Part shown: piece by piece, positions 2,068 to 51,419 of the stretch
Numbering within the stretch: position 1 is the first letter of the stretch
How the letters are laid out: each line of letters starts with the position of its first letter
Sequence record: MG976803.1
Reading direction: 5' to 3' (one strand)
DNA: 64,000 nucleotides
Origin: Escherichia phage myPSH2311
Program-made: the position numbers and the translations under genes
The notes under the pieces: generated by a model
What the model was told of the DNA's origin: nothing
Seen by the model: the letters and a program-made list of their open reading frames with translations, nothing else
The model's database searches: none

Positions 2068-3504
2068 ATGGCATTGCAGATTTTGTCTTTCAAGGCGTAT
2101 GACTTCCAAAAGAAATTTTATGCAGCAGGATTGAAGCATCGCTTTAGATTCTTGTGTGCAGCGAACCGTGTTGGTAAATCTTACAGCGAGGCATACGAGT
2201 TTGCTTGTCATGTCACAGGTCGCTACCCAACTTGGTGGACAGGATATAAATTTAAAAGACCTATCTTAGCATGGGCAGTTGGTATTACAGGGGATTCCAC
2301 AAGGAAAGTATTGCAAAAGGAATTGTTTGGTACACCTATCGGAAAGGATACAAATTTATTGGGGACAGGTGTCATTCCTCGTGATGCTATCGTCATTGAC
2401 ACGATAGAACGAGATGGTAACAAACTTCAAATCGTACAAATCAAACATCAAAATGAAAGAGGAGAATTTGACGGTTTAAGTACATTAGAATTCCGCTCAA
2501 CCCAACAGGGTGAACACACATTGATGGGTGCAACAGTTGACTACATTTGGTTAGACGAAGAAGATCCATACGAGTCTATGGCTATATTCGCACAGTGCGT
2601 CACACGTACACTCACAACTAAAGGTCTAGTTACAATTACAGCTACACCAGAGAACGGTTTAACTGAACTGGTAGATAAATTTATGAAAGGTGAAGGGGAT
2701 GAGAACACAGGTTCTCTATATTTCCAGAATGCTTCTTGGTGGGATGCTCATGCAGACCTAGGTGGACATATCACTGACCAAGATATAAAAGATATGACTG
2801 AAGGTATTCCAGCGTGGCAGTTAGAGATGCGTTCGAAAGGTATGCCATTGTTAGGAAGTGGTTTGATATATGATGTATCGGATGACACAATTAAATGTGA
2901 ACCATTCGAAATTCCGGATACGTGGAAACGTGTCTGTGCAATTGATATTGGTATTGATCACCCAACTGCTGCTGTTTGGACAGCTTACGATGCAAACACT
3001 GATACTATCTATGTTTACGACTCGTATAAAGAAGGTGGCTTTACTCCAGTGTATCATGCTCCAGCTATTAATGGTCGTGGTCAGTGGATTCCTGTCATCC
3101 TACCGCATGATGCGGACAATATTGAGAAAGGTAGTGGTTCATCTGTTGCTCAATTCTATAAAAATGCAGGAGTTAACGTACAGAGTGAGACCTTCTACAA
3201 CAAAATTGGAATGGATGGTAAAAAGAACTTCTTTGTAGAACCGGGAATCACAGATATCCGAGAAAGAATGATGAGTGGACGCTTTAAAATCTTTAACACA
3301 GCCGCTAACGCTAAGCTATTCGAAGAGAAAGCTAGATATCACCGTAAGGTTGGTAAGATTATTAAAGAACATGATGACTTAATGGATGCAATGCGCTATT
3401 CAGCGTGCTCTGTTACACATCGTGGTCGCTCTAAGCATGACGTTAGCTACGGAAGTGCTTCTCTGTATGAGGCAAACGTAAGCAGATGGAATCAGAGTTA
3501 CTAA
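2068..3504 (+). CDS. terminase large subunit
   Basis: 478 aa; P-loop-like CAANRVGKS, Walker B-like DYIWLDEED, nuclease-domain acidic residues (CAIDIGIDH); start uncertain, no SD. Confidence 0.85.
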   Translation: MALQILSFKAYDFQKKFYAAGLKHRFRFLCAANRVGKSYSEAYEFACHVTGRYPTWWTGYKFKRPILAWAVGITGDSTRKVLQKELFGTPIGKDTNLLGTGVIPRDAIVIDTIERDGNKLQIVQIKHQNERGEFDGLSTLEFRSTQQGEHTLMGATVDYIWLDEEDPYESMAIFAQCVTRTLTTKGLVTITATPENGLTELVDKFMKGEGDENTGSLYFQNASWWDAHADLGGHITDQDIKDMTEGIPAWQLEMRSKGMPLLGSGLIYDVSDDTIKCEPFEIPDTWKRVCAIDIGIDHPTAAVWTAYDANTDTIYVYDSYKEGGFTPVYHAPAINGRGQWIPVILPHDADNIEKGSGSSVAQFYKNAGVNVQSETFYNKIGMDGKKNFFVEPGITDIRERMMSGRFKIFNTAANAKLFEEKARYHRKVGKIIKEHDDLMDAMRYSACSVTHRGRSKHDVSYGSASLYEANVSRWNQSY

Positions 3505-3565: not shown

Positions 3566-5296
3566 ATGGCTAAGCAAAAATATAGTGAAGAGGTGTTGGA
3601 CGAGTTACGTGTTGACCTTCAACGTCGTTTTAATTACGCTCAAGGTTACGTGGACATGGCTGTTAAGGGCTATGCTCGTGAAGCTTGGGAATATTTCTAT
3701 GGTAACTTACCTGCACCAGTAACTGCTGGCAGCTCTAGTTGGGTAGATCGTACTGTTTGGGAATCTGTTAACGGTACATTGCAAGATATTATTAACGTAT
3801 TCTGTTCTGGTGATGAAGCAGTTACTTTCGTAGCTGACAACCAACAGGATTCTGATGCTGCTGATGTAGCAACTAAACTAGTTAACCAAATTCTTCTGCG
3901 TGATAATCCGGGATACAATATTATCTCTTCTGCTGCACAAGAATGTCTAGTTACTCGTAACTCTTTTATCAAGTATTATTGGGATGAACAAACTTCTACT
4001 CAAACTGAAGAAGCTGAAGGTGTACCACCGGAAGCATTGGCTGCATATGTTCAGGGATTAGAAGCTGGTGGACTCAAGAATCTGGAAATCTTCACTGAAG
4101 AAAATGAAGATGGTACAGTGGATGTTAAAGTTACTTACGAACAAACTGTTAAACGTGTGAAAGTTGAATATGTCCCTTCAGAGCAAATCTTTGTTGACGA
4201 ACATGCTACCTCTTTTGCAGATGCACAATACTTCTGTCATCGTGTTCGTCGTTCTAAAGAAGATCTGGTTGCTATGGGCTTCCCTAAAGACGAGATTGAA
4301 GCATTCAACGACTGGACAGACACGATGGATACTACTCAATCTACAGTTGCTTGGTCTCGTACTGACTGGCGTCAGGATATTGATGCTGATATTGGTACAG
4401 ATACCGAAGATATTGCTTCTATGGTTTGGGTTTACGAGCACTACATTCGTACTGGTGTTCTAGATAAGAATAAAGAGTCTAAACTCTATCAGGTTATTCA
4501 AGCTGGTGAGCATATCCTTCACACTGAAGAAGTAACTCACATTCCGTTTGTAACCTTCTGTCCGTATCCGATTCCAGGCTCCTTCTATGGTCAATCGGTC
4601 TATGACATTACGAAAGATATTCAAGATTTACGTACCGCGTTAGTTCGTGGTTATATTGATAACGTCAACAATGCTAACTATGGTCGATACAAAGCTCTTG
4701 TTGGTGCATACGACCGTCGCTCTCTGCTTGATAACCGTCCCGGTGGAGTGGTTGAAATGGAACGTCAGGACGCTATTGACCTGTTCCCATACCATAACCT
4801 ACCTCAAGGTATTGACGGCCTCCTAGGCATGTCTGAGGAGCTTAAAGAGACACGTACAGGTGTAACCAAACTAGGCATGGGTATCAACCCTGATGTGTTT
4901 AAGAATGATAACGCTTATGCAACTGTAGGCTTGATGATGAATGCTGCACAGAACCGTCTCCGTATGGTGTGTCGTAACATTGCTCACAACGGTATGGTTG
5001 AATTGATGCGTGGTATTTACAACCTTATCAGAGAAAATGGTGAAGTCCCTATCGAGGTACAAACCCCTCGCGGTATGATTCAGGTAAATCCGAAACAATT
5101 ACCAGCTCGTCACAATCTCCAAGTTGTTGTAGCTATCTCTCCTAATGAGAAAGCAGAACGTGCACAGAAACTGATTAGCTTGAAACAGCTGATTGCAGCA
5201 GATGCACAGTTAGCACCTCTCTTTGGTTTGGAGCAAGACCGTTACATGACTGCACAGATCTTTGAGTTGATGGGTATTAAAGATACACATAAATAA
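3566..5296 (+). CDS. portal protein
   Basis: 576 aa ORF immediately after terminase; size and position typical; RBS GAGGGAGAGAA. Confidence 0.7.
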   Translation: MAKQKYSEEVLDELRVDLQRRFNYAQGYVDMAVKGYAREAWEYFYGNLPAPVTAGSSSWVDRTVWESVNGTLQDIINVFCSGDEAVTFVADNQQDSDAADVATKLVNQILLRDNPGYNIISSAAQECLVTRNSFIKYYWDEQTSTQTEEAEGVPPEALAAYVQGLEAGGLKNLEIFTEENEDGTVDVKVTYEQTVKRVKVEYVPSEQIFVDEHATSFADAQYFCHRVRRSKEDLVAMGFPKDEIEAFNDWTDTMDTTQSTVAWSRTDWRQDIDADIGTDTEDIASMVWVYEHYIRTGVLDKNKESKLYQVIQAGEHILHTEEVTHIPFVTFCPYPIPGSFYGQSVYDITKDIQDLRTALVRGYIDNVNNANYGRYKALVGAYDRRSLLDNRPGGVVEMERQDAIDLFPYHNLPQGIDGLLGMSEELKETRTGVTKLGMGINPDVFKNDNAYATVGLMMNAAQNRLRMVCRNIAHNGMVELMRGIYNLIRENGEVPIEVQTPRGMIQVNPKQLPARHNLQVVVAISPNEKAERAQKLISLKQLIAADAQLAPLFGLEQDRYMTAQIFELMGIKDTHK

Positions 5297-5340
5297 TTGC
5301 CGATTTTCAGGTTGAGAACGTACAGGCTTCTTCTCAGAAG

Positions 5341-5745
5341 ATGATTGCTGATGCATTCGACCAACGTGAACGTACTACATTCGAACAGCAGAAAGCTGCG
5401 GATGAGTTAAGTCTGCGTCAGGAAGAGTTGCAGTTCAAGCAAGAAAATGCAGCAGATGCTATGACTCTGGAAAACCGTAAAGAAGATAACAATGCTACTC
5501 TGGAACAAGCTAAGCACAAGTTAGCTCTTATGCAACAGCAGGTCCGTCAGTATGAATCTGTACTGAAAGAATTGCAGATGGTTATGTCTCATCAGGTAGA
5601 CCAAGAGAAGATTGTTCAGCAAGCTCGTGTTCAGGACAAAACTTTGGAACTCCAAAAGAAAGAAGCTAATGTAACTAAGAAAGAGCAACAAGCTTCTCTC
5701 AAAGATTCACGGATTCCAGGCAAACGTCTTGGAAGTAAAAAGTAA
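5341..5745 (+). CDS. coiled-coil protein, hypothetical
   Basis: 134 aa, Q/E/K-rich heptad-like sequence; no clear SD. Confidence 0.45.
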   Translation: MIADAFDQRERTTFEQQKAADELSLRQEELQFKQENAADAMTLENRKEDNNATLEQAKHKLALMQQQVRQYESVLKELQMVMSHQVDQEKIVQQARVQDKTLELQKKEANVTKKEQQASLKDSRIPGKRLGSKK

Positions 5746-5754: not shown

Positions 5755-5991
5755 ATGAACATTAGGCATCAATTCAATAAAGAGCACGCCGCCGCTTTGG
5801 CGGCTCTCAATCTTAACGGCAGTCTTGACGCAGCATTAGAGGCATTGAAAGAAAGACTCATGACAGAGATCGTACAAACCGAACCTCATGAGAATAAGAA
5901 ACGCGAAGATTGTTATCAAAAGTATAAAATGGTGGGCAGCTTAAAAGAGGTCATAAAAGCTGCTATCAATAGTGCAGGAGATGTTTCATAA
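5755..5991 (+). CDS. hypothetical protein
   Basis: 78 aa ORF, ATGA overlap with downstream scaffold ORF. Confidence 0.5.
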   Translation: MNIRHQFNKEHAAALAALNLNGSLDAALEALKERLMTEIVQTEPHENKKREDCYQKYKMVGSLKEVIKAAINSAGDVS

Positions 5992-7076
5992 TGCCACAAG
6001 ATAATTATATTGACCCGAACGATTTTAAATCTTTCCTCCAACTGGATGACCTAAAAGGTTCTTTCAAAGAAGAACTCGGTCGATTAGAATCTGAACAAGA
6101 ACCAGAAGTGGACATTGACGATGAGTTCCCGGAAAAAGACGGTGACGATTTCGACTTTGATACCGACCTTCTCGGTGAAAGCGATGAGCTTAAGTTCGAA
6201 GATGAAGATGGTTGGGAAGATCGTGAAGAGGAAGGCGAAGTCGAACAAGATGAGGAAGAATTTGATGAATCAGACGAAAACTCTGAAGCAGATGAGGAAG
6301 ACTCAAGCGATGCAGGATATGAAGATGATTCTGCTGACGGTGATGGTGAAGTCTTTGATGTAGACTACGAAACCGTTATCACCCTTCCTGATGGACGTGA
6401 GATGACTATTGAAGAACTTTCTAATGGCTATCTTACTGGTGCTGATATGACAGAGCGAGAATCAACTCTTCAGCGTCATATGGAAGCATTTGAGGAACGT
6501 GTAGTAGGTTTGAAGGATGTATTAGAATTAGCGTCTTTAGAAGCAGACCGAGTAATTGAAGATTATAACGGTTTTGATTGGGACAAGCTTGCAGTAGAAG
6601 ATCCTCAAGCGTATGTTGAAAACAAACGTTTCCTAGAGAAGTACACAGCTCGCCGTCAACAGCTTGAACAGGCTCAGGTCCGTATTAAGCAGGAAGCAGC
6701 AGCTAAAGAGCAGGAAGCTTTCCAAGCCAAGAGCATTGAATGTGTTAATATTCTGAAACGTGAGATTCCAAATTGGGATGAAAACTTATATCAAAACTTA
6801 ATGCAATACGCAATTGACTTAGGTGCTACTGAAGAAGAAGTATTGAAGGAAAACCGTCCGTCTATTTTCCTAGCTCTCCATAAAGCATACCAATTTGATA
6901 AAGGTAAGCAACAGGTGATGGCTAAGATTAAACGTCCCGGTGCTCCACGCAAGGTTGTGAAGTCTGATGCTGCAAAGTCTCGTACTTCCAATAAGCCCGA
7001 CAACGCTAAGGTTGCCAAGGCATTCGCAGAGGGTCGCGTTAGTCACGAAGACGCATTCAAATTCCTCGTAGATTAA
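5991..7076 (+). CDS. putative scaffolding protein
   Basis: 361 aa with extremely acidic D/E-rich N-terminal half and coiled-coil C-terminal half; directly upstream of capsid gene. Confidence 0.55.
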   Translation: MPQDNYIDPNDFKSFLQLDDLKGSFKEELGRLESEQEPEVDIDDEFPEKDGDDFDFDTDLLGESDELKFEDEDGWEDREEEGEVEQDEEEFDESDENSEADEEDSSDAGYEDDSADGDGEVFDVDYETVITLPDGREMTIEELSNGYLTGADMTERESTLQRHMEAFEERVVGLKDVLELASLEADRVIEDYNGFDWDKLAVEDPQAYVENKRFLEKYTARRQQLEQAQVRIKQEAAAKEQEAFQAKSIECVNILKREIPNWDENLYQNLMQYAIDLGATEEEVLKENRPSIFLALHKAYQFDKGKQQVMAKIKRPGAPRKVVKSDAAKSRTSNKPDNAKVAKAFAEGRVSHEDAFKFLVD

Positions 7077-7117
7077 TCGACAAATTAAATTATTAATAGT
7101 ATAGGAGCTAACATAAC

Positions 7118-7453
7118 ATGGCTAATCCAACTTTATTTGTATCGTATGACCAGAATGGTAAAAAACTTTCTTTTGCTAACTGGATTTCTGTTCTGTCCCC
7201 TCAGGATACCCCGTTCGTATCTATGACCGGTAAAGAGTCTATCAACCAGACTATCTTTAGCTGGCAGACCGATGCACTGGCAAGCGTTGACAGTAATAAC
7301 GCACACGTCGAAGGCTCTCGTGCTGAAGACGGCGAAATGAAACCGACTGTTATCAAATCTAACGTTAATGGTCCTTTGGACGTGGTAACTGATTGCAGTG
7401 TCAAGTCTTGGCATATGTCCATGTCCATGGCATTAAGCTATAAAGGCGCTTAG
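7118..7453 (+). CDS. major capsid protein, N-terminal segment (ends at in-frame TAG)
   Basis: RBS AGGAG upstream; same reading frame as 7463-8065, separated only by TAG at 7451-7453 plus 9 nt. Confidence 0.55.
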   Translation: MANPTLFVSYDQNGKKLSFANWISVLSPQDTPFVSMTGKESINQTIFSWQTDALASVDSNNAHVEGSRAEDGEMKPTVIKSNVNGPLDVVTDCSVKSWHMSMSMALSYKGA

Positions 7454-7462
7454 ACATGCGTA

Positions 7463-8065
7463 TTGCGTCTGAATGACACCCATGCAGCTCGTAAGACTGG
7501 TGCATTCCAGTTCCTGTGTGCTCACGGTGGTCTGGCTGGTGGCGTTGTTGACAAGACCAAGAATGGTCCTGCTGACCCGGACACTGGTGCAGTAACTGTT
7601 AAAGTTGCACAGAATGCTTCTAACCCGACCACTAACATTGGTTTCGACGAAGCTGATATCTTTGATATGACTCTGCAACTGTATACCGCTGGTTCTGAAG
7701 CAGATATCATCATGATTAACCCGGCTCATGCTAAGATCTTTGCTGGTCTGCAAGAAAATACTCAGGGTTCACGTAAGCGTATCTTTGAGAACACCAAGCA
7801 GTTCATCTACGAAGTTAACAGCATCACTGACCCGCTGGGCCAGAGCTACAAAATCATCGTTAACCGTTGGATGCCTACCGATGCAGTTTACTTCTTCCGT
7901 AGCGCTGACTGGACCCAGATGGTTCTACGTGCTCCGAAACGTACTGAACTGGCTAAAGACGGTTCTTACGAGAAGTGGATGATTGAAATGGAAGTTGGTC
8001 TGCGTCACCGCAACCCGTATGCTTCCGGCGTTCTGTTCACTGCTGCGGGAAAGGTGGCGGCGTAA
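7463..8065 (+). CDS. major capsid protein, C-terminal segment
   Basis: 200 aa, TTG start in track, no SD; in frame with 7118-7453; followed by slippery site and Ig-like ORF. Confidence 0.55.
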   Translation: MRLNDTHAARKTGAFQFLCAHGGLAGGVVDKTKNGPADPDTGAVTVKVAQNASNPTTNIGFDEADIFDMTLQLYTAGSEADIIMINPAHAKIFAGLQENTQGSRKRIFENTKQFIYEVNSITDPLGQSYKIIVNRWMPTDAVYFFRSADWTQMVLRAPKRTELAKDGSYEKWMIEMEVGLRHRNPYASGVLFTAAGKVAA

Positions 8066-8589
8066 CAGTAGACAGTGTGACTGTTAGCCCTGCGTCTTTA
8101 GCAAGCCTAGAGACAGGGGCTACTCGGCAGTTCACTGCAAGCGCGGAGAAAAGTGATGGTTCTACCGAAACAACTGGCTTTACTTGGTCAGTGACAGGAG
8201 GTGGTTCTATCACTCAGTCGGGTTTGTATACTGCCCCGAGTGCGTCTCAATCCACTGATGTATCCATTACTGCAACTTTAGAAGGTGTTTCTGGTACAGC
8301 AACCATTTCTGAAATTGTTGCTCCTACTCCTACTATTGTGAGTCGTGGGCCAATTACAGGTAAAGTAGGTGGTACTACCACTAACTTCAACACCATGTTT
8401 ACTGTAACTAATTCTATTGCTGATGATTACACACTTGTTGTAACTCCCGCAGAAGCTGGTACAATAAGCGCTAATAATTCGTTAAAATTAGATGCTGCTG
8501 CAAGTGGCGAAGTTACTGTTCAAGCAAGTTTGACAGCTGACCCGTCCATCAATGCAACATGCACTTTTACTGGTGTAACACCTGCTTAA
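8047..8589 (+). CDS. capsid C-terminal Ig-like (Big_2-type) extension in the -1 frame
   Basis: heptamer G GGA AAG at 8047-8053 in capsid zero frame, 10 nt before capsid stop; -1 frame open to 8589 encoding VTVSPASL..TRQFTA..TWSV..SGLYTA Ig-like pattern. Confidence 0.6.
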   Translation, partial: GKGGGVTVDSVTVSPASLASLETGATRQFTASAEKSDGSTETTGFTWSVTGGGSITQSGLYTAPSASQSTDVSITATLEGVSGTATISEIVAPTPTIVSRGPITGKVGGTTTNFNTMFTVTNSIADDYTLVVTPAEAGTISANNSLKLDAAASGEVTVQASLTADPSINATCTFTGVTPA

Positions 8590-8597
8590 AAACTAGA

Positions 8598-8622
8598 CCC
8601 TGCCTTCGGGCGGGGTTTTTTT
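8598..8622 (+). terminator. rho-independent terminator
   Basis: CCCTGCC TTCG GGCGGGG hairpin followed by TTTTTTT. Confidence 0.75.
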
Positions 8623-8692
8623 CGTTTTAAGACCTATACAAGCTAGTGTGTAATGTATATTCTTTGTCTACATACAACAAGGAGGACAACCT

Positions 8693-9445
8693 ATGGCGAT
8701 GCCAGATGTGGCCTATCCGATTAACACGTATGGCTGGCTTAAGAAAGCTGTTGCCTTGTGGGCCGATCGGGACGATGACGAATTTGTTAATCAAATTCCA
8801 AACTTTATTAACTTTGCAGAGAAAGAGGTTTATCGTAACTTACGTATTCCTCCTCTGGAAAAAGAAGTGTATTTAGATATTAAAGATGGAGTGGCTTATA
8901 TTCCTCCTGATTACTTAGAAGCTCAATGGATGATGAGATCCAAAGATGGTACAATCTTCCAAGTAACATCTCCTGAGGAGATAAGCTATCGGAGACAGCA
9001 CGGGGCTATTAACTCTTCACATTGGAATAACCAACCTGTTAATTTTGCACGGTTTGGAGCACGTTTCTTATTCTATCCTAGAATAAATGCAGATGTTCCG
9101 CATTACCCTGATGATGGTAGTCCGATTGTTCCAGCGGAGAGTTCGGTAATCTTGAGTTATTATGCAGATCCTCCAGAATTTCACGAAGATGGTGATACAA
9201 GTGCGATTCTTACCATTGCACCAGAGCTTCTTTTATATTTTACTCTGAGGCATGCATGTTTATTTGTTCAAGATGATAATGGGGTTCAAAAGTGGTCTGC
9301 TTTAGGTAAGGCTATTCTTGACGAGCTAGTAGAACAGAATAAGAAACAAGAGTACTCAGGTTCACCTATTGCAATTCCGAATAACATGACTCGACTTCAG
9401 AGCAGCCTGCCTGATATTTATGGTATTCGTACTTCTCGTCTATAA
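8693..9445 (+). CDS. virion structural protein (possible head-tail adaptor)
   Basis: 250 aa, RBS AAGGAGG; position after capsid gene. Confidence 0.45.
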   Translation: MAMPDVAYPINTYGWLKKAVALWADRDDDEFVNQIPNFINFAEKEVYRNLRIPPLEKEVYLDIKDGVAYIPPDYLEAQWMMRSKDGTIFQVTSPEEISYRRQHGAINSSHWNNQPVNFARFGARFLFYPRINADVPHYPDDGSPIVPAESSVILSYYADPPEFHEDGDTSAILTIAPELLLYFTLRHACLFVQDDNGVQKWSALGKAILDELVEQNKKQEYSGSPIAIPNNMTRLQSSLPDIYGIRTSRL

Positions 9446-9454: not shown

Positions 9455-10579
9455 ATGATCGTTTATAACAACCAAGCACCTAAGAATGTTAACAATGTAG
9501 GACAATTTGGAGCTACTGAGGGAACTATTGGTGCTTATAAATCAGCAGCTGAATATGCAGCAGACTCTAAATATTGGGCATTGTTGTCCCAAACTAAATA
9601 CTCCTCAGTAGAGGAGATTTTGGCTGAAGTAGAACGTCTGTATGCTCAAGGTCATCTACTGGAAGAAGACATTAAACAACTCAAGAGTGACTTTGAGTCA
9701 CAAGAACAAGTGCTCTTAGGTTTGATTCAATCCACAGGAACTGCAATTGACAACACCAATGCAGCAACTGAGCTTTCAAAAGAGGCAACTCAAAACGTTC
9801 TAGCACAACTTGACATTATCTCTAACATGACAGTTCAAACAACGCTTCTTCCTCCGGGAAGCCTAGCTACGGGGTCTTATGATAATGCAACAGGTGTCTT
9901 TGCTTTTGGTATTCCAGAAGGTAAACCGGGGCGTGATGGTACTGACGGAACAATCGGTGATATTGGAAGCGTTCCTGTTGGTACCCCTGTTGTTGATGAC
10001 TATGGTTTCTATGTAGATAAAGATGATGGTGGTTTATACCGAGCTGACATGTCAGATATTGCCAACTTGATTCCATCTGTTCGATCTGTTTCAATCAATG
10101 GCGGCGCTGAACAAACAGGTTCAGTGGTTTTTGATTCTGTCTCCACATTCAATGGACGTAAGGGTGCTGTAGTTCCTGCTACTGGAGACTACACAGCTGC
10201 TCAAGTGGGAGCTTTTAGTGTAACTAATAACCTATCCGAAATAACCGACACAAGTGCAGCTATTACAAATATTGGACTCGCTGAGCATGGGATTGGTAGC
10301 CCTACCTTAACCAAAGTGAAGGCTATGGACTGGCAAACATTTAATTTTGTCAATGGAGGTAACTATTCAGTATTAATGTCGAATATTACAAATGCCCCTG
10401 CTGAGATAAATTATCCTGCCAATTATGGGTTATATCTTGAAGTCATTGGCGTAGTTACAGGAGGAGGTGAGGTACGAGTGGTGCCAATTGCATTGGGAAT
10501 CCTCTCAATGGCATATTTTCCGCTTGGCCAATGCGCTTATGCCGTGGCAAATGTGCCACAACTGCTGCATTGTGTGTAG
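9455..10579 (+). CDS. tail fiber protein, N-terminal segment (ends at in-frame TAG)
   Basis: RBS AAGGAG; short collagen-like GKPGRDGTDGTIGDIG; TGDYTAAQVGA fiber-type motif; last 30 codons look non-native. Confidence 0.5.
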   Translation: MIVYNNQAPKNVNNVGQFGATEGTIGAYKSAAEYAADSKYWALLSQTKYSSVEEILAEVERLYAQGHLLEEDIKQLKSDFESQEQVLLGLIQSTGTAIDNTNAATELSKEATQNVLAQLDIISNMTVQTTLLPPGSLATGSYDNATGVFAFGIPEGKPGRDGTDGTIGDIGSVPVGTPVVDDYGFYVDKDDGGLYRADMSDIANLIPSVRSVSINGGAEQTGSVVFDSVSTFNGRKGAVVPATGDYTAAQVGAFSVTNNLSEITDTSAAITNIGLAEHGIGSPTLTKVKAMDWQTFNFVNGGNYSVLMSNITNAPAEINYPANYGLYLEVIGVVTGGGEVRVVPIALGILSMAYFPLGQCAYAVANVPQLLHCV

Positions 10580-10705
10580 CATCGCCAGCTTAGCGCTGCA
10601 TCAATTGTACCTATTACCAAAGGTGGTACAGGAGCTACTTCATCAGAGAATGCTCGACTAGCTCTAGTTGCAGCTAAGAGTGGTGATAACTCTGATATCA
10701 CCTCG

Positions 10706-22107: not shown

Positions 22108-23757
22108 ATGCAACAGACAACTTACGCTCAGGTCAGAAGTCGTGACCCGAGAAATACTTTCTATGGTGTTAATCCGGGAGCGGCTTCGGCCTCTCCTTAT
22201 ATGGCTAGACCCGTTCAGACAGCAGATATTTCTATGTATCAACGACCTGCTGTACCTGCTGGGTTATCTGCTCTTGTAGGTCAAACTTCAGTTGATTATC
22301 AGAATATGTTGAATCCTGTTCAGAGTAATGGTCTTCCTTCTGACATTCCGAATGATGTACAACCTCAATCACAACAGGCTGTAACTCTTCCTGAGTTTGA
22401 GAACCAAGAAACCATGCAAGCTGCTGGACTTTCTCCTTCTGCTATTCCTCAAGAATCAGAACCTCTTCCGGTAACACCTCCTACTAAACCGCTAGAAGCT
22501 GGTCCTATGGAGTTTACTCCTTCTCAGGTAGAACAGGCACAAGGTGTGATTAACACTCTTGCTCAAGGACAAGACACTGGTGATGGAATGGCTGCTGCTA
22601 CTCGTGCTAAAGATCAAGAGCGTGTTAACAACGATATCTTGCAAGTTGCGAAAGCTAAAGACCCTTCAGAAGCTTGGAACAAACTACAGAAAGAACCATT
22701 CTATCAGAACTCTAGTTTCTATACAGGTTTGATGGGTGTAGGTCTTTCCATTATGTCAGGTAAGTCTCCTATTGAAGCTTTCCAGATTGGTCAGGGAATG
22801 GCTAATCAGGATGAGACTAAGAAGCAACTGGAAGCTAACCGTGATGCCTTGATTGAACAAGGCTTCTCTCAAGACTCGATCGCAGCTGCTATTGCTAACG
22901 GAGACCCGTCTCTACTGAAGATGAGAGCTGTAGACCCTGCTCAGAAAGAAGCGCTGTATGCTGCTCGTGAAGAACGACAAAATGCTGAATGGGATAGACG
23001 TCAACAGATTCAAGAGCAAACTATGCGTGAGCGTGCTGATGAAACTCGTCGTGCCGCTGAAGAAAGAGCTAACATGAACTTTGAACGTCAGAAAGAGTTG
23101 ATTGGTTATCGTGATAAGGTTAAGGCTGAACGTGCTGAACAAGCTGCTCAGAGTTTTAACTTTAACCCGAAAGAAGTTCGTCTTGCTCAGAATACAGCTG
23201 AAGGTACGGTTGCTAAGCAGTGGGCAGAGAAAGGTGGCCTGTTTAACCAGTCTAACAAAGACTTGGATTTGGCTGATAAAGCTGTTAAGGATAAAGACTA
23301 TCAGACAGCTCGTTCTGCTTACATGCAGGCTATCATGAACTCTGCAAGGGCTGAAATCGGTGCTACTCGTTCTCTTACCGAAGAAGACTTAGGGCACTTT
23401 GCAGAAGACCCATCAATCTTCGTTCGTGTTGGCAACAAGTTTGCACTGAAATCTGGATGGCGTCCTACTGATTCTGCTCTTGCTTATGCTCGTAAGCAAG
23501 CTAACGTTGGTCACACCTCTGCAATGAAAGGTGTTGCTGATGCTAAGAGAGCTACGATTGAAGCTTACATCGGTTCTGGTATGGATAAGAAGAGAGCTAC
23601 TGCATTGGTTAACCGTGCAATCCCTTCTGGTGGTTTCTATGACCCTCTAGGTGTTTTCTCTGAACAAGCAGAAGAAGCAGTTGGTGGTGCAGTAACCAAT
23701 CCTAAGCTTAATGGTGCTTTATCAGCTGTCGAAGACACTAGCTGGTTCACTCAATAA
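22108..23757 (+). CDS. internal virion protein
   Basis: 549 aa, RBS GGAGA; position within internal protein block. Confidence 0.45.
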   Translation: MQQTTYAQVRSRDPRNTFYGVNPGAASASPYMARPVQTADISMYQRPAVPAGLSALVGQTSVDYQNMLNPVQSNGLPSDIPNDVQPQSQQAVTLPEFENQETMQAAGLSPSAIPQESEPLPVTPPTKPLEAGPMEFTPSQVEQAQGVINTLAQGQDTGDGMAAATRAKDQERVNNDILQVAKAKDPSEAWNKLQKEPFYQNSSFYTGLMGVGLSIMSGKSPIEAFQIGQGMANQDETKKQLEANRDALIEQGFSQDSIAAAIANGDPSLLKMRAVDPAQKEALYAAREERQNAEWDRRQQIQEQTMRERADETRRAAEERANMNFERQKELIGYRDKVKAERAEQAAQSFNFNPKEVRLAQNTAEGTVAKQWAEKGGLFNQSNKDLDLADKAVKDKDYQTARSAYMQAIMNSARAEIGATRSLTEEDLGHFAEDPSIFVRVGNKFALKSGWRPTDSALAYARKQANVGHTSAMKGVADAKRATIEAYIGSGMDKKRATALVNRAIPSGGFYDPLGVFSEQAEEAVGGAVTNPKLNGALSAVEDTSWFTQ

Positions 23758-23824
23758 GACCTAAGTCCTGCCTTCTATAATGTATATAGGGGGTAGGACA
23801 TTTTTATTTATAAAAGGAGACGTT

Positions 23825-24172
23825 ATGGCTAACATTAAACCGTGGGAAGAAGCTTCCAAAGCTCCTGCGTATCTGAATGCCTCTCCGGAGCAACAAGCTC
23901 AAATGAGAGAACAATATAAGGCAGCAGGTGGCTCTATTCCTGAGGAACAACCAGTAGCACAACCACAACAAGAAGAACGTGGTGCTATAGGTGAGTTTGC
24001 TCAAGGTGTGTCAAATGCTCTTCAATCTGGTGGTGCAAATATTGCAGCTAGTGCTGCTAAAGGTATTGGTGGTTTAGTTGAGATTGGTGAGAATCTAGCT
24101 GGAGCACAAACTAGTTATGGTAAGCGTATCCAAGAGAACTCTCAGAAAGTCAGTGTCATGAGTTGCTGGTGA
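23825..24172 (+). CDS. internal virion protein, N-terminal ORF
   Basis: ATG at 23825 preceded by AAAGGAGA; G/A-rich; ends 8 nt before the next ORF in the +1 frame. Confidence 0.5.
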   Translation: MANIKPWEEASKAPAYLNASPEQQAQMREQYKAAGGSIPEEQPVAQPQQEERGAIGEFAQGVSNALQSGGANIAASAAKGIGGLVEIGENLAGAQTSYGKRIQENSQKVSVMSCW

Positions 24173-24179
24173 TATCGGT

Positions 24180-26972: not shown

Positions 26973-27139
26973 TTGCAAGCCTTTTAAGGCGCGCTGAAGC
27001 GGCTTTAAATGGCGCTAAATCGTGCAAAATGCCCATTGGGAGCCTGAATGGCGCGTGTTTTGCATAAGCCGGCGTTTGCCCAGTTCGTAAGGCTGGTATT
27101 TTGCTGTAAAGCGTGATTCATCGCCGCCTGATGCGTACT

Positions 27140-27982
27140 ATGGAAGATAAGGGCATATCTAGAGAGGATGCTGAAGCATTTGCTGGTTCCTATATGGATA
27201 ACCGTTATGCACTTCTTGAGAAGCCTATGACTCCTACTGAACATCAGAATGCTCGTTCTCGTATCGAAGCTGATGTTGAGAAGTTTGCTAAGAAGTACGA
27301 ATCAATGACTCCTATCGAGAAAGAGATTGTTAAGGTTACTGGAGATACTGAAGGTAAGCTTGATAACTTGGATGCGGATACTAGGAAGGCTATTGAGGAG
27401 GCTCAGAAGGTTGACTCTGATATTAAGAAACTGCAAGAGGAAGAGTTGGAGATGGAGAAGATTCGTTCTGCTCTGCCTGATGATGAAAGATCTCAAGCAA
27501 ATTCTGATATCTTGGAAAGCATTAAACAACAGGAAGAGGTCTTTGCTGATAAAGTAGAGAAAGCTTTCTTGAGTGGGAAGAGCTTGGATGAGTTGGCTAG
27601 TGTGGCTGAAGTTTTAGACAGGGTTCATGGTGCAGATAAGGCTGGTAACAACCGTCGCTTTGTACGTGCATTGCAGACTGCTGCTGAAAACAAGAAGAAG
27701 TATGGTGATAATCCAGTAGCTTGGTTTAGTGCTGATGATTACTCTGCCATTGCTAAACTTGGTGCTTCTTCCGCAGGTGGTAACAAATCCAGAGCACTGG
27801 AGAAGATCTTTGGTTCTACAGCTGAACAGGCTAAGAGTAAGTTGCTTGGTAGGGATGATGTAGCGAAGATGAGACGTGTGATTGAAGAGAACCCTGATAT
27901 CAAGATTCCTTCTTACAAGACAGGTCAGGTTTCCAGTCCCAGTCAATGGGCATGCATGGTCCAAAATCGGCCCCTAGGGTAA
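27140..27982 (+). CDS. internal virion protein, truncated by insert
   Basis: track ORF 27113-27982; native-looking reading frame runs to 27922, last 20 codons derive from the filler. Confidence 0.45.
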   Translation: MEDKGISREDAEAFAGSYMDNRYALLEKPMTPTEHQNARSRIEADVEKFAKKYESMTPIEKEIVKVTGDTEGKLDNLDADTRKAIEEAQKVDSDIKKLQEEELEMEKIRSALPDDERSQANSDILESIKQQEEVFADKVEKAFLSGKSLDELASVAEVLDRVHGADKAGNNRRFVRALQTAAENKKKYGDNPVAWFSADDYSAIAKLGASSAGGNKSRALEKIFGSTAEQAKSKLLGRDDVAKMRRVIEENPDIKIPSYKTGQVSSPSQWACMVQNRPLG

Positions 27983-28022
27983 CGTCGGAATCCGGTACGC
28001 TTATGCCCCTAAGTGCATTTTT
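27923..28022. other. 100-bp GC-rich filler between perfect 81-bp direct repeats
   Basis: 27842-27922 is identical to 28023-28103; the intervening 100 bp is unrelated to flanks. Confidence 0.8.
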
Positions 28023-28524: not shown

Positions 28525-28791
28525 CTAGATTAAATCGTAATACTGAATAATGTCAGAGAGTTTGAACTCTCGAATCTCATCTTTCTCTACATCTATCGCT
28601 GTCATAATCCAACAAGGTTTGCCACCGTTATGAAAACGGGAGCTAGCAACGGAGGTTCGGAGTGGAATAACGGACCGGTCAGCAACCTCGCCTCTCCAAT
28701 TGCGATAGCGAAAGCGAAGCACTTGTTGCGTAGATTTTTGATCATCACTCATTTCCTTTTTTGAATTGTTTTCTTGCATCATTATTGGCAA
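28525..28791 (-). CDS. hypothetical protein
   Basis: 88 aa ORF, last gene of minus-strand module. Confidence 0.4.
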   Translation of the reverse strand: MPIMMQENNSKKEMSDDQKSTQQVLRFRYRNWRGEVADRSVIPLRTSVASSRFHNGGKPCWIMTAIDVEKDEIREFKLSDIIQYYDLI

Positions 28792-29078
28792 TGCTTAACG
28801 TAACTAGCTTGGGCTTCATGGTCAAGAGGAACTATAGGCTCTATGTGGTCAATAGCCATATCCTTTACAGGGTGGTCAGAACCACACATGGCACACTTAA
28901 AGTGCATTGCCAGTCTACCTGTCTTTGGATTAATCTTCTGCTCTGTCTTGGCGTCTGCTAGTGCATCGAACATGGGCTTCCACTTTCTAGTCAGAGAACG
29001 AATCCCTGACTTGATAAAAGAATTGTAACGAGCTTCAGTCCACATTCCAGAGCATCTAGTCTTCTCAGCCTTCGCCAT
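28782..29078 (-). CDS. HNH nuclease-domain protein
   Basis: 98 aa; HFKCAMCGSDHPVKDMAIDHIEPI matches HNH C..C/His motif. Confidence 0.5.
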   Translation of the reverse strand: MAKAEKTRCSGMWTEARYNSFIKSGIRSLTRKWKPMFDALADAKTEQKINPKTGRLAMHFKCAMCGSDHPVKDMAIDHIEPIVPLDHEAQASYVKHCQ

Positions 29079-34426: not shown

Positions 34427-34723
34427 TTAGATAGTTAATTTGTGATCTTCCTCCGCTCTGTTTCTAACAGAGACGGCTTCTTCTAGGGTTGAGAAAGTTC
34501 CTAGGTATTTAGTTTTCGTTGAAAGGCTTAAGGCTTTTGGCATAGCTGCAAAATGGGCCCGTTAATATGACCCGTTAAAGGCTTTTTTGGCATGCGTAAA
34601 AGGCTTGCTTAAATTTCCTGCCTCATCACCCCGCCTGCATTTTGTTCCGTTGCGAATTCTCCAGAACACTTTCCCAGATGATAAATCACAAACAAAGAAC
34701 TCATCCAGAAGATCTTCTATCAT
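34427..34723 (-). pseudogene. HNH-AP2 homing endonuclease remnant with internal filler
   Basis: 5-prime 26 codons MIEDLLDEFFVCDLSSGKVFWR and 3-prime end KYLGTFSTLEEAVSVRNRAEED flank a GC-rich filler at about 34515-34645. Confidence 0.5.
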
Positions 34724-34935
34724 ATCATGCAACCATCGCAAGTTAAGTCACCTAGCAGGGACAGGGAAAGTAATCTGGATTGCTCATCGCTGTATAGTTG
34801 ATCAATCTCTTCTTTAAGTTTTGCCAACTCCATAAAGTTAATGAGCTGACCATGTTCGAGGCAGTCTGTTTTTAGTACGAACAAAACTTCAGCGTTGGTT
34901 GAGTCTTCACTTGAGTATTTATCAATGTATTCCAT
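34720..34935 (-). CDS. hypothetical protein
   Basis: 71 aa ORF. Confidence 0.35.
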   Translation of the reverse strand: MEYIDKYSSEDSTNAEVLFVLKTDCLEHGQLINFMELAKLKEEIDQLYSDEQSRLLSLSLLGDLTCDGCMI

Positions 34936-39856: not shown

Positions 39857-40292
39857 TTATGAGCTTAAAGCTCCTTTGCGTGCTCCAGCTGCTTTTCCAG
39901 CTCGATCACCACTTTTGCCGCCGTTTGAACGGTTTGAGCTGACTGATTCAACACGTAAGTTGCTTGACGCATTAGAGCCTCCAGACTTGACAGCTCGTTT
40001 GTGTCCAACGTCTTTACCTCTGACAGCAGCTTTTCCATCGCGCTTTTCAACGATGCGACGTGCACGGTGGCGCTGAGCATCTCCGCTCTTGCTCCCAATT
40101 CCCGTTTCACCGCGCTTGATCGCAGTCCTTCTTTCTTGTGCATAATCTCTCTTTCCTACATGATCTGCCATTAGATTTCTCCTGTTGGGCAATGACGTTA
40201 AACGCCCGTTGTGGCCCAAAATTGGCGCCCAAAATTGGGGCTTAATGCGTGCGTAATTTTTGGGCCAAATTAAGGCCGTATATAATAACAGC
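39857..40292. other. GC-rich segment fused in frame to the PhoH ORF; coding status unclear
   Basis: two overlapping minus-strand frames both look protein-like; local GC well above phage average. Confidence 0.4.
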
Positions 40293-41750: not shown

Positions 41751-42095
41751 TTAACTCTCCAAAGTTTTCTTCAGAGCTGCCCATGAGATTGGGTAGAGCT
41801 TAGCCATCTCTTCATCTACGGATTTAGCAAACACTCGAACTTCATATTGAGCGTGAGATGAGAGTCGCTGACGACACAACTCAAACCAGCCATACAAAGA
41901 ACCAGTCCACACCCACTCAGTGATCATCCCCTGAGGAAGAACAAATCGAGCTTGCTCTGGTGCAATAAATTCAATCAACTTGTCATATGTTGCTAGAGAA
42001 GCTTCATATGCATCGTTAATCAACATTAATGCTTCAGCTCGTTCTCCGTCGATGAGTTGAATCCCTGAACCTGCATGGTTTGCCCAAAATGGCAT
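41751..42095 (-). CDS. thyX: flavin-dependent thymidylate synthase ThyX, C-terminal half
   Basis: ARFVLPQG..RLSSHAQYEVR matches ThyX C-terminal conserved block. Confidence 0.6.
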   Translation of the reverse strand: MPFWANHAGSGIQLIDGERAEALMLINDAYEASLATYDKLIEFIAPEQARFVLPQGMITEWVWTGSLYGWFELCRQRLSSHAQYEVRVFAKSVDEEMAKLYPISWAALKKTLES

Positions 42096-42163
42096 TGGCG
42101 CTATAGCATGGGGCTTTTTAAATGGCCCCGCGGGTTAATGCTAATGGCGGATTTTGGCCACGG

Positions 42164-42469
42164 TTATGCATGCGTAGGGAGTTCAACTGCTCCATCTTTA
42201 TACCGCCGGGACATTTCGTTCCACGAGAATCCAACCTGATGCTTGCCCAGCTGTCTCGCAATTGCGATAGGTGCTTTGCATCGGAAACTGACTTGCGGGT
42301 GTCGGAATGGAGTACAGTGTTTTTCCCGTGCAAGGAAGTTGATAAGTTTTGTGTCTCTCTCATTTAAGTCACCTTCTCGAACAACACCGAAAGATACTCT
42401 AGCTGCATTGACTACAGATTTGTCACTACCCATTGCTTCAATCAGTGTTGCTTGTAGTTGTTCGTTCAA
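42164..42469 (-). CDS. thyX: flavin-dependent thymidylate synthase ThyX, N-terminal half
   Basis: AARVSF, HCTPFRH and KH..FSWNEMSRRY resemble the ThyX signature; separated from the C-terminal half by a filler. Confidence 0.6.
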   Translation of the reverse strand: MNEQLQATLIEAMGSDKSVVNAARVSFGVVREGDLNERDTKLINFLAREKHCTPFRHPQVSFRCKAPIAIARQLGKHQVGFSWNEMSRRYKDGAVELPTHA

Positions 42470-44034: not shown

Positions 44035-44237
44035 TATTATCCATTACCTGCTGGGTAATTACGATGCAGTTTAGGCATGGTAATGCGTTTAGGCGTCTTG
44101 GGGAGGTGCCCCCAGTTGCAAGCTGATGCTGCGGGTAAATTGGCGCCATGGGAAACGCGTTAATGCGTGCCTGATGTTATCTTTTCTCATGTGTTGCTCA
44201 AGATCCCAAACAACATGAATAGCCCACATCTTTTTCA

Positions 44238-45381: not shown

Positions 45382-45498
45382 TCTTGCTCCTTAGTTATTT
45401 GTTTCCATTTAAGCGTGCATATTTTGGCTAATTTTTGGCGTAAAAGTTTTCGCCCAGTGCCTGATTGAACCGGGTCGTAATTATTGCCCGGGTAGTGT

Positions 45499-45591
45499 TT
45501 AAAATGGCGAGGAATTAACAGCTGAGTGTGGTGCATCAATAACACCATCATCAATTAATTTATGTAACTCTGGACTTCCTAGTAAACTCAT
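45499..45591 (-). pseudogene. diverged duplicate of the dCTP deaminase 5-prime end
   Basis: encodes MSLLGSPELHKLIDDGVIDA then runs into filler; compare MSLLGSVELHDVIDNGYLDA of the intact gene. Confidence 0.55.
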
Positions 45592-48785: not shown

Positions 48786-48905
48786 ACCAAAATTGCGTGA
48801 CGTTGGCTAATTGCTGACGTGGAATGGCCCTGGCAATTGGGATGCCCCGTGTTAGCTGCGATTTGGCGCGTTATTGGCCCCGTGTTTGCAAGTAATGCGC
48901 GGGCT

Positions 48906-49606: not shown

Positions 49607-49706
49607 AATGGGCCGTTTTATGCGGTTTAAAGGCCTTGACCAGTGCATTTGCCCGTTAAATGGCGTGGGGATTTCCCAGTGCGGGTGGCCAGTAAACGTG
49701 TTTTGT
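49607..49706. other. 100-bp GC-rich filler between 110-bp direct repeats
   Basis: 49497-49606 matches 49707-49816; intervening 100 bp unrelated. Confidence 0.8.
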
Positions 49707-50137: not shown

Positions 50138-50190
50138 AAAACCTCCAGCTTATCCGAACTAGCCTCCTCTTTCGAAGAGGCTAAAGCAGA

Positions 50191-50621: not shown

Positions 50622-50627
50622 ATATCC

Positions 50628-51419
50628 TTAGTAGTTTACAACAGTGCCATCGTTCAGGGTAAGGCTATTAATCTGCAACACACGACCAAGCTGACGATCA
50701 CTAATTGGTGCGTTCCATCCAGAGCGGTAGAAGTTACGACCACAGAAGAACAAGATCACATTACTTGCTACAGTCGAACCGTTTTCAGGATGCTTGATGT
50801 TAGCGATATAATAACCACGACGCAGATTACGACGGGTTACAGGGTTGATCTCTAACCCTTGCTCTTCAACTTGCATTGTTTCAGGAACAGGTTCCGAAGA
50901 TTCTTCAGCAACTGGCTCGGAGCTTTCCACTGACAGTGCGTAATCCTCATCACCTGCTGGTGAAAATGTTTCTTCCACTTCTTCAACAGGAAGTTCGTAT
51001 GCAACACGATAGTCAGGCTCAACACCAGAGAAGCTCTTAACAAACTCAACAATATTGTGAGTATAGGTTTCCAGAGTTGTTCCAGTCAGTCCCGGAGCTG
51101 TGTTAACTTCCAGAACCCAAGCGTTAGTATTTTTACTAATCAGGTCAACAGCACCAAAGTTCAAACCCAGAGCAGATACAGCTTTGTGAGCTTGAATCAA
51201 AACCTGATCAGGAGGCGCATCTTGGAAGTTTGAGGAATAAACCCAACCAGTGTGATGATTTCGAACGTCTTCACGATAGGAAGGATCTTCACGGTAACCA
51301 TTACGACGAATCTTCTTCTGAACGTAAGTGATAACACCTTCGAATACATGAACACGCCATTCACGATTGGTGAACGATAAGGGAAAGGTCCTTGGCCATA
51401 GCGTGGCGTATGCATGCAT
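50628..51419 (-). pseudogene. ATP-grasp ligase 3-prime half, truncated copy
   Basis: starts within filler and joins ATP-grasp at REWRVHVFEG; retains EVNTAPG motif; lacks N-terminal ATP-binding half. Confidence 0.55.

What the first reader, a model, noticed from the sequence alone, without database searches (positions are those of the whole stretch)
7118..8065. In-frame amber codon inside the capsid reading frame
ORFs 7118-7453 and 7463-8065 are in the same frame and separated only by TAG at 7451-7453 plus three sense codons; the downstream part has a TTG start and no SD. Together they give about 315 aa. Possible explanations are an amber mutant, stop-codon readthrough, a sequencing error, or two real genes.
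Basis: seen in the sequence. Interest (0 to 1): 0.6.

Follow-up and report, generated by a model that had tools for sequence, protein, structure and literature searches.

The report
Assembly filler inside phage capsid gene
The "amber codon in the capsid gene" sits inside a 100-base block of meaningless filler that marks a contig junction in a poorly assembled public phage genome (myPSH2311), so it is an assembly artefact and not biology.

Summary
The literal observation is correct: TAG at 7451-7453 separates two same-frame ORFs (7118-7453, 7463-8065). The TAG is not a change within capsid sequence, though. Window 7368-7466 (about 100 nt) has no similarity to the 210 nt found here in every relative, where the capsid gene is one 352-codon ORF (identical to the SU10 major head protein, PDB 7Z45). 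The flanks are 99-100% identical to phage ES17.

The block has stops in all six frames. It matches nothing in the phage, E. coli, viral, metagenome or genome collections, and it has no RNA-family or folding signal. It is one of at least 12 blocks of about 100 nt (six exactly 100). All sit at breaks in synteny, where the ES17 coordinate jumps forward (210 to 4717 nt lost) or backward (81-1308 nt repeated). The blocks share k-mers and a G+T-rich composition unlike phage DNA.

The window is GenBank MG976803 (phage myPSH2311), positions 1-64000: 79 of 82 ORFs in the authors' table fit exactly. The authors ordered de novo scaffolds on a reference with CONTIGuator. Terminase, portal and tail-fibre genes are broken in the same way, yet the phage grows (burst size 110).

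Verdict: assembly artefact. There is no amber mutant, no readthrough and no pair of genes.

The parts
7118..7367 (+). Genuine 5' fragment of the major capsid gene (codons 1-83 and the first base of codon 84), on the contig left of the junction
   Evidence: 248/250 nt identical to ES17 gp011. Pfam SU10_MCP profile positions 6-79.
7368..7466 (.). Filler block of about 100 nt at a contig junction. It replaces 210 nt (codons 84-153) of the capsid gene and contains the TAG and the TTG 'start'
   Evidence: No alignment to ES17 or Bas90. Stops in all six frames. No hit in phages, E. coli genomes, viral, metagenome or genome contigs, or Rfam. Fold z = -0.8. Leave-one-out filler-versus-phage Markov score z = 3.5, with 6 of 2434 genuine windows as high.
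7451..7453 (+). The 'amber codon': a chance TAG inside the filler
   Evidence: 1.7 stops are expected per 33 filler codons.
7467..8065 (+). Genuine 3' fragment of the major capsid gene (codons 154-352 plus stop), on the contig right of the junction
   Evidence: 596/599 nt identical to ES17 gp011. 99.9% identical to myPSH1131 from 7476. Pfam SU10_MCP profile positions 136-289.
10487..10595 (.). Same kind of filler, in the tail-fibre gene (184 nt of ES17 missing)
27923..28022 (.). Filler of exactly 100 nt. The ES17 coordinate jumps back 81 nt (unmerged contig overlap)
40185..40286 (.). Filler, with 1040 nt of ES17 missing
42079..42178 (.). Filler of exactly 100 nt
44072..44171 (.). Filler of exactly 100 nt, with 452 nt of ES17 missing
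45409..45508 (.). Filler of exactly 100 nt, with a backward jump of 110 nt
49607..49706 (.). Filler of exactly 100 nt, with a backward jump of 110 nt
51367..51460 (.). Filler between copies 1 and 2 of a region present three times
52764..52859 (.). Filler between copies 2 and 3 of the triplicated region
54527..54623 (.). Filler, with 4717 nt of ES17 missing
60549..60648 (.). Filler of exactly 100 nt, with 1786 nt of ES17 missing. Its composition is less typical of the other fillers
   Evidence: Markov z is only 0.1.
5296..5307 (.). Short filler (12 nt for 76 nt) that breaks and frameshifts the portal gene
2069..2077 (.). Short filler (9 nt for 82 nt) that breaks the large terminase gene

Best explanation
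The window is the deposited sequence of Escherichia phage myPSH2311 (GenBank MG976803, positions 1-64000). That sequence is not a finished genome. It is a pseudo-molecule made by laying de novo scaffolds along a reference genome with CONTIGuator.

The capsid gene is split between two contigs: codons 1-83 on the left and codons 154-352 on the right. The 210 nt between them were never assembled. The junction is occupied by a fixed-length spacer of about 100 nt. In this sequence the spacer is written in arbitrary A/C/G/T letters instead of N. By chance the spacer keeps the reading frame (99 nt for 210 nt) and carries one in-frame TAG.

The real phage almost certainly has the ordinary, uninterrupted 352-codon capsid gene.

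**Shown:**
- The block has no homology and no match anywhere.
- It belongs to a set of at least 12 similar blocks at synteny breaks.
- The window is MG976803.
- The published assembly method is CLC followed by CONTIGuator.
- The gene is intact in all relatives.

**Inferred:**
- The blocks stand where 100-N separators were placed.
- Who or what turned them into letters.
For: 1. **Replacement, not mutation.** Window 7368-7466 does not align to the 210 nt at this position in ES17 or Bas90, while the flanks are 99-100% identical.
2. **The block is an orphan.** It has no hit in 50,697 phage records, 5,426 E. coli genomes, IMG/VR, JGI metagenomes, GTDB genomes or Rfam. All 12 blocks pooled give no phage hit at E <= 1.
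3. **The pattern runs across the window.** blastn against ES17 leaves at least 12 unaligned blocks of 94-109 nt, six of them exactly 100. Each sits at a jump in the subject coordinate: +210, +184, +1040, +452, +4717 and +1786, or -81, -110, -110, -1308 and -1279.
4. **A region is repeated.** One region of about 1.3 kb is present three times in tandem as three different alleles. Their best matches are myPSH1131 at 100%, ShigP1 at 99.8% and ES17 at 99.8%. Every relative has one copy.
5. **The fillers have a common source.** They are G+T-rich whatever the gene strand. They share far more k-mers than shuffles do: at k=8, 55 shared against a mean of 10.8 and a maximum of 24. 10 of 12 score as 'filler' in a leave-one-out Markov test at z >= 3.5.
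6. **Provenance.** 79 of 82 ORFs in Table S4 of Manohar et al. 2019 (PMC6437105) are perfect ATG-to-stop ORFs at the same coordinates in the window. The authors call only 7667-8065 the 'major head protein'.
7. **Method.** CLC de novo assembly (5.9 Mb in total), then reference-based ordering with CONTIGuator. The same pipeline was used for the sister phage myPSH1131, whose record is also a patchwork and lacks window 5777-7475 altogether.
8. **Viability.** Terminase, portal, capsid and tail-fibre genes are all broken in the same way, yet the phage forms virions with a burst size of 110.
9. **Homologs.** 137 of 139 records hold the capsid gene as one uninterrupted piece, at identities from 100% down to 41%. 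The SU10 structure 7Z45 is one 352-residue chain.
10. **Independent remark.** A kuravirus pangenome study excluded four phages for assembly errors, judged by the terminase ORF.
Against: - A scaffolder's separator should be N, but here it is A/C/G/T. I could not determine whether the letters are in the GenBank record or were substituted later, because MG976803 is not in the tool's collections.
- The CONTIGuator default of 100 N is my recollection. The paper held here does not state it. The 100-N convention for pseudo-molecules in general is documented.
- Some junctions carry shorter fillers (9-28 nt) or longer unaligned stretches (140, 169 nt), which a pure 100-N model does not explain.
- The control on the sister record was mixed: some of myPSH1131's own blocks of about 100 nt do match natural kuraviruses.
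Confidence: 0.96

Rival explanations
1. Same artefact, different origin of the letters. The public record holds runs of N at these junctions, and the letters were put in downstream, for example by the preparation of this window, so that no N remains.
For: The window has no N at all. The blocks are exactly 100 nt at six junctions. They share a low-entropy, 'made-up' look. None of the authors' 82 ORFs overlaps a filler.
Against: - The short fillers (9-28 nt) have the same style but are not 100 nt.
- The sister GenBank record, as held in the collection, has only a single NN and no N runs at its junctions.
- This cannot be decided without the GenBank flat file.
Confidence: 0.2
2. A real defective or deletion-substitution variant: the packaged DNA truly carries a capsid gene in which 70 codons are replaced by 33 foreign codons including an amber codon, and it is propagated by co-infecting wild-type kuraviruses in a mixed lysate.
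For: The assembly contains contigs of at least three kuravirus variants, so the lysate or the library was mixed. The replacement happens to keep the frame.
Against: - The same 100-nt blocks occur at 11 or more other places, including backward jumps that repeat sequence. That is a scaffolding signature, not a biological one.
- The block matches no known sequence and resembles the other fillers.
- Five essential genes would have to be defective at once.
Confidence: 0.02
3. An amber nonsense mutation, programmed readthrough or amber recoding in a continuous capsid gene.
For: One in-frame TAG and the same frame on both sides.
Against: - The residues on both sides of the TAG (codons 84-116 of the joined frame) are unrelated to the conserved protein, and 70 conserved codons are missing.
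- There is no tRNA of any kind in the window.
- Homologs have no stop here.
- Neighbouring genes such as the scaffold gene (5991-7076) are ordinary open frames ending at normal stops.
Confidence: 0.005
4. A small mobile or self-splicing element (intron-like or intein-like) inserted in the capsid gene.
For: Kuraviruses carry HNH homing endonucleases (ES17 annotation).
Against: - It is a replacement, not an insertion: the 210 nt of 'exon' are gone.
- 99 nt is too short for a group I or II intron.
- There is no Rfam hit and the fold z-score is -0.8.
- It has stops in every frame, so it cannot be an intein.
Confidence: 0.003

Closest known systems
Contig separators in reference-ordered pseudo-molecules (ABACAS/CONTIGuator-type scaffolds, conventionally 100 N)
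   Same: - Fixed length of about 100 nt.
- Located exactly where collinearity with the reference breaks.
- The flanks either skip reference sequence or repeat it (unmerged overlaps, allelic contigs placed side by side).
- The authors' methods name CONTIGuator. The 100-N convention is documented.
   Different: - The separators are written as A/C/G/T letters from a low-entropy source instead of N.
- Several junctions carry only 9-28 such letters.
Major head protein of kuraviruses (SU10 gp, PDB 7Z45; Pfam PF17236 SU10_MCP)
   Same: The two real fragments (codons 1-83 and 154-352) are 99-100% identical to it.
   Different: Codons 84-153 (TQILRKVV...DPAVAG) are missing from the window sequence. By inference these include the long helix GRELMYQLEKKGKEIKRDLEKILL, likely the HK97-fold spine helix. 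As written, the gene could not make a capsid.
Classical phage amber mutants (for example T4 or lambda am alleles in head genes)
   Same: An in-frame TAG within a head-gene frame.
   Different: An am allele is a single-base change in otherwise colinear sequence and needs a suppressor host. Here the TAG lies in 99 nt of unrelated sequence and 70 codons are absent.

Membership tests
Scaffold or pseudo-molecule contig separator (artefact) | Fixed, conventional length (100 nt) | tested here: met
   12 blocks of 94-109 nt, six exactly 100. Lengths just under 100 are expected from chance matches at the block edges.
Scaffold or pseudo-molecule contig separator (artefact) | Sits at breaks of collinearity with the reference, and the flanks skip or repeat reference sequence | tested here: met
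   Subject jumps from +210 to +4717 and from -81 to -1308 at the blocks. Allelic contigs are laid in tandem.
Scaffold or pseudo-molecule contig separator (artefact) | Sequence produced by a reference-guided scaffolder | tested here: met
   Window = MG976803. Methods: CLC scaffolds ordered with CONTIGuator.
Scaffold or pseudo-molecule contig separator (artefact) | Separator written as N | tested here: not met
   The window holds no N. The blocks are A/C/G/T with shared k-mers. Whether the GenBank copy has N could not be checked.
Amber (nonsense) mutant of a capsid gene | A point change from a sense codon to TAG in otherwise colinear, homologous sequence | tested here: not met
   The TAG lies in a 99-nt non-homologous block, and 210 nt of the gene are missing.
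Programmed stop-codon readthrough or amber recoding | Stop conserved in homologs, homologous protein sequence continuing across it, and a suppressor tRNA or recoding signals | tested here: not met
   Homologs have no stop. The sequence across the TAG is not homologous. ARAGORN finds 0 tRNAs.
Two independent genes | Homologs encode the two parts as separate ORFs, and the downstream part has its own start signals | tested here: not met
   137 of 139 records have one uninterrupted piece. The TTG at 7463 lies inside the filler and has no SD.
Self-splicing intron or intein | Insertion between intact exons or exteins, with a conserved RNA structure or an open in-frame protein | tested here: not met
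   Exon sequence is missing. No Rfam hit. Fold z = -0.8. Stops in all frames.
SU10_MCP (PF17236) capsid protein | Full-length match to the family profile | tested here: not met
   Only profile positions 6-79 and 136-289 are present, and 80-135 are absent. The flanking fragments themselves are true members.

The most novel reading that the evidence does not exclude
The lysate that was sequenced really contained a sub-population of defective kuravirus genomes. In these, the central 70 codons of the capsid gene are replaced by an unrelated 33-codon stretch with an amber codon, and the genomes are maintained by co-infecting intact variants. The other blocks would remain assembly artefacts under this reading.
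Probability: 0.01. Interest if true: 0.35.

Novelty: not a real feature. Interest (0 to 1): 0.03.

Why it matters
It has no biological importance. Its practical value is as a warning. MG976803 (myPSH2311), and very probably its sister record MG983840 (myPSH1131), are labelled 'complete genome' but are reference-ordered patchworks. They have filler blocks, lost segments, repeated allelic contigs, and broken terminase, portal, capsid and tail-fibre genes.

Any scan for recoding, pseudogenes, gene fission, tandem duplication or 'novel orphan DNA' in these records will produce false positives. Other findings from this same window should be checked against the list of junctions before they are believed. 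myPSH1131 has been proposed as the founding member of a new genus, so the quality of these records also matters for taxonomy.

Tried and rejected
- **Suppressor tRNA:** none found; the window has no tRNA at all.
- **Known RNA family or stable structure in the block:** only two sub-threshold eukaryotic snoRNA matches (E about 4) and a fold z of -0.8.
- **Source of the block elsewhere:** I searched phages (distant mode), E. coli genomes, IMG/VR, JGI metagenomes and GTDB genomes and found nothing. The only hit was a 24-nt chance match at E = 4. No copy of the block, or of its reverse complement, occurs elsewhere in the window; the longest shared word is 11 nt.
- **Exact-protein look-ups:** the truncated 111-aa ORF and the intact scaffold protein were tried as a way to retrieve the public contig. 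Neither is on record.
- **Fetching MG976803 directly:** not in the collection.
- **Generic 4th-order Markov scan trained on ES17:** it flags many fillers but not the capsid one at z < -3. A filler-versus-phage leave-one-out model was needed.
- **Control on the sister record:** asking whether myPSH1131's own ES17-unaligned blocks of about 100 nt are orphans gave a mixed answer, since some match natural kuraviruses at about 86%. I do not use it as evidence.
- **Author ORFs running through a filler:** I looked for any, which would prove the letters were present at annotation. None overlaps, but the authors' gene calls are too erratic to conclude anything. For example, the 576-aa portal ORF was not called.
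- **CONTIGuator's 100-N default:** I could not confirm it in the paper held here.

Full report
**1. The observation.**

- ATG at 7118 follows a GGAG.
- The frame is open to TAG at 7451-7453.
- Three codons follow, then TTG at 7463.
- The frame is then open to TAA at 8063-8065.
- All of this is in one frame.

Both ORFs match Pfam SU10_MCP (PF17236), but at profile positions 6-79 and 136-289. About 56 profile positions between them are unaccounted for.

**2. What the region is.**

The window is a kuravirus (phiEco32/SU10-like podovirus of E. coli). The nearest record is phage ES17, 99.6% identical over 7000-8700. In every one of the 70 records that cover the query, however, the match comes in two pieces, and the record span is about 110 nt longer than the query.

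In ES17 and in Bas90 the capsid gene is one ORF of 1059 nt (352 codons). Aligning the three genes and counting mismatches from both ends gives this picture:
- Window 7118-7367 equals ES17 codons 1-83 (2 mismatches in 250).
- Window 7467-8065 equals ES17 codons 154-352 (3 mismatches in 599).
- Window 7368-7466 (99 nt) has no similarity to the 210 nt that ES17 has between them.

The TAG, the three "sense codons" and the TTG "start" all lie inside this block. The block has stop codons in all six frames.

The ES17 protein is essentially identical to the SU10 major head protein. Its cryo-EM structure, PDB 7Z45, is a single chain of 352 residues. A tblastn of that protein finds it as one uninterrupted piece in 137 of 139 phage records, at identities from 100% down to 41%.

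So the gene in the window is not "capsid with a stop". It is capsid with 70 codons removed and 33 unrelated codons in their place.

**3. The block is an orphan.**

Searches for the block returned the following.

| Collection or test | Result |
|---|---|
| 50,697 phage records (blastn, word 11, E up to 10) | One 24-nt chance match |
| 5,426 complete E. coli genomes | Nothing |
| 40-mer from the block in IMG/VR | Absent |
| 40-mer in JGI metagenome contigs | Absent |
| 40-mer in GTDB genomes | Absent |
| Rfam | Two sub-threshold eukaryotic snoRNA matches |
| Predicted fold versus shuffles | z = -0.8 |
| Copies elsewhere in the window | None |
| tRNA genes in the window (ARAGORN) | None, so no suppressor |

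**4. The block is one of many.**

blastn of the whole window against ES17 shows that collinearity is interrupted again and again by unaligned stretches of nearly constant length:

| Window coordinates | Length (nt) |
|---|---|
| 7368-7466 | 99 |
| 10487-10595 | 109 |
| 27923-28022 | 100 |
| 40185-40286 | 102 |
| 42079-42178 | 100 |
| 44072-44171 | 100 |
| 45409-45508 | 100 |
| 49607-49706 | 100 |
| 51367-51460 | 94 |
| 52764-52859 | 96 |
| 54527-54623 | 97 |
| 60549-60648 | 100 |

Values just below 100 are what chance matches at the edges of a 100-nt block would produce.

Across these blocks the ES17 coordinate jumps arbitrarily:
- Forward by 210, 184, 1040, 452, 4717 or 1786 nt, meaning sequence is lost.
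- Backward by 81, 110, 110, 1308 or 1279 nt, meaning sequence is repeated.

The backward jumps include a region of about 1.3 kb that appears three times in a row. Each copy is a different allele:
- 50147-51366 is 100% identical to myPSH1131.
- 51461-52763 is 99.8% identical to ShigP1 and FS2B.
- 52860-54526 is 99.8% identical to ES17.

Every relative has a single copy.

Shorter versions of the same lesion break the large terminase gene (2069-2077: 9 nt for 82) and the portal gene (5296-5307: 12 nt for 76, with a frameshift). A third is at 28784-28811 (28 nt for 96). Their letters are in the same style, for example AATTGCCG, ATGGCATTGC and GGCAATGCTTAACGT.

**5. The blocks have a common, non-phage character.**

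- **Composition.** Pooled, the blocks are G 29%, T 30%, A 22% and C 20%, against G 21% and A 29% for the window. They keep this composition even where the genes are on the minus strand and the local plus strand has only 15-19% G.
- **No matches.** All 12 blocks pooled give no hit in the phage collection at E <= 1.
- **Shared words.** At k=8 they share 55 words between blocks, against a mean of 10.8 and a maximum of 24 for shuffled copies, and a mean of 17 for genuine pieces of the window. Favourite words include ATGCGT, AATGGC, GCATGC and AAATTG.
- **Leave-one-out test.** A second-order Markov model was trained on the other 11 blocks and compared with one trained on ES17. The capsid block scores z = 3.5, and 6 of 2434 genuine windows score as high. 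Ten of the 12 blocks reach z >= 3.5. The block at 60549 does not.

The blocks therefore come from one low-entropy source that is neither phage nor host DNA.

**6. Provenance.**

Phage myPSH1131 (MG983840.1) shares many 100%-identical blocks with the window, but it breaks at other places and lacks window 5777-7475 entirely.

Its paper (PMC6200275) states that CLC de novo scaffolds were arranged with CONTIGuator against a reference and submitted as a complete genome. The same laboratory's second paper (PMC6437105) describes the same procedure for phage myPSH2311 (MG976803, 68,712 bp). There the raw assembly was 5.9 Mb, so it was mostly not phage.

The ORF table for myPSH2311 in that paper's supplement lists portal 5341-5745, 5755-5991, scaffold 5991-7076, "major head protein" 7667-8065, 8395-8589, 8693-9445 and so on. 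Of the 82 entries that fall within 64 kb, 79 are perfect ATG-to-stop ORFs at exactly those coordinates in the window. The other three are off by one or two bases.

The window is therefore MG976803 positions 1-64000. The record is not in the tool's phage collection. Exact-protein look-ups did not retrieve it either.

The authors themselves annotated only the last 132 codons as the head protein. An independent kuravirus pangenome study excluded four genomes because of assembly errors, judged by an incomplete terminase ORF.

**7. Mechanism.**

Reference-guided scaffolders lay contigs along a reference and put a fixed separator between neighbours.
- By my recollection, CONTIGuator's default separator is 100 N. 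I could not confirm this in the paper held here.
- The 100-N convention for such pseudo-molecules is documented elsewhere.

Such a procedure explains several features of the window:
- the constant length of the blocks;
- their position at synteny breaks;
- the unmerged overlaps;
- allelic contigs from a mixed sample placed side by side;
- the missing segments.

Two things are not explained. One is why the separators are letters and not N. The other is the origin of the shorter fillers. The letters may already be in the deposited record, or they may have replaced N afterwards. I could not tell which (rival 1).

Either way, the 210 nt of the capsid gene were simply not assembled. The in-frame TAG is a chance product: the frame is kept with probability 1/3, and 1.7 stops are expected in 33 filler codons.

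The phage is viable, with virions seen and a burst size of 110. That is incompatible with simultaneous disruption of the terminase, portal, capsid and tail-fibre genes.

**8. Comparison with known things, and novelty.**

The real parts are ordinary fragments of the well-known SU10-type HK97-fold capsid protein.

The feature fails every defining criterion of:
- an amber mutant;
- programmed readthrough or recoding;
- a gene split;
- an intron or intein.

It meets three of the four criteria of a scaffold separator and fails only "written as N".

It is not a real biological feature, and the interest score is very low. The useful outcome is the list of junctions given under parts. These will generate further false findings in this window, such as broken portal and terminase genes, apparent tandem triplication, orphan DNA and the missing tRNA.

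Noticed in passing
window 3566-5745 (junction at 5296-5307): The portal gene (a single 747-aa ORF in ES17) is split into ORFs 3566-5296 and 5341-5745. 76 nt are replaced by a 12-nt filler (AATTGCCGATTT...), which causes a frameshift. This is the same artefact class as the capsid lesion.
   Followed up: yes
window 2069-2077: The large terminase gene is broken near its 5' end: 82 nt of ES17 are replaced by 9 nt of filler-like letters. The authors annotate only 2524-3504 as terminase.
   Followed up: partly
window 50147-51366, 51461-52763, 52860-54526: The same region of about 1.3 kb (ATP-grasp enzyme and neighbours) is present three times in tandem as three different alleles, separated by 100-nt fillers. 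Best matches are myPSH1131 at 100%, ShigP1/FS2B at 99.8% and ES17 at 99.8%. This implies that contigs of at least three kuravirus variants were in the assembly (mixed lysate or cross-sample carry-over). It is not a real triplication.
   Followed up: yes
window 27923-28022, 45409-45508, 49607-49706: Across these fillers the ES17 coordinate goes backward by 81 or 110 nt, so the same sequence is repeated on both sides. These are overlapping contig ends that were never merged.
   Followed up: partly
window 54527-54623, 60549-60648, 40185-40286: Large losses relative to ES17 at filler junctions: 4717, 1786 and 1040 nt. Several middle and early genes are therefore missing from the record.
   Followed up: no
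whole window: ARAGORN finds no tRNA. A published table lists one tRNA for nearly all other kuraviruses and zero for myPSH2311 and myPSH1131. The tRNA gene probably lies in a lost segment.
   Followed up: no
window 34436-34729, 44459-45112, 58000-58454: Stretches absent from ES17 but with normal phage composition. The 654-nt and 455-nt stretches are also present in myPSH1131. They are probably genuine accessory DNA and not filler.
   Followed up: partly
L005/L006 (MG983840.1, phage myPSH1131): The sister GenBank record is also a patchwork. It lacks the scaffold gene and the 5' part of the capsid gene (junction at record position 3431). It carries diverged duplicate blocks, for example 23305-26384 repeating 16-19 kb sequence at 92-95% identity. 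Its 'major head protein' is annotated at only 132 aa. It has been proposed as the founding member of a new genus.
   Followed up: partly
window 26976-27115 and 48792-48960: Unaligned stretches of 140 and 169 nt with filler-like G+T-rich composition. They are probably a 100-nt filler plus some divergent or lost real sequence. Exact boundaries were not resolved.
   Followed up: no
window 8077-8589: The Ig-like domain gene just downstream of the capsid gene is intact (GTG start, same length as in ES17). The authors annotated only its last 65 codons (8395-8589), which shows that their gene calls start at internal ATGs.
   Followed up: partly
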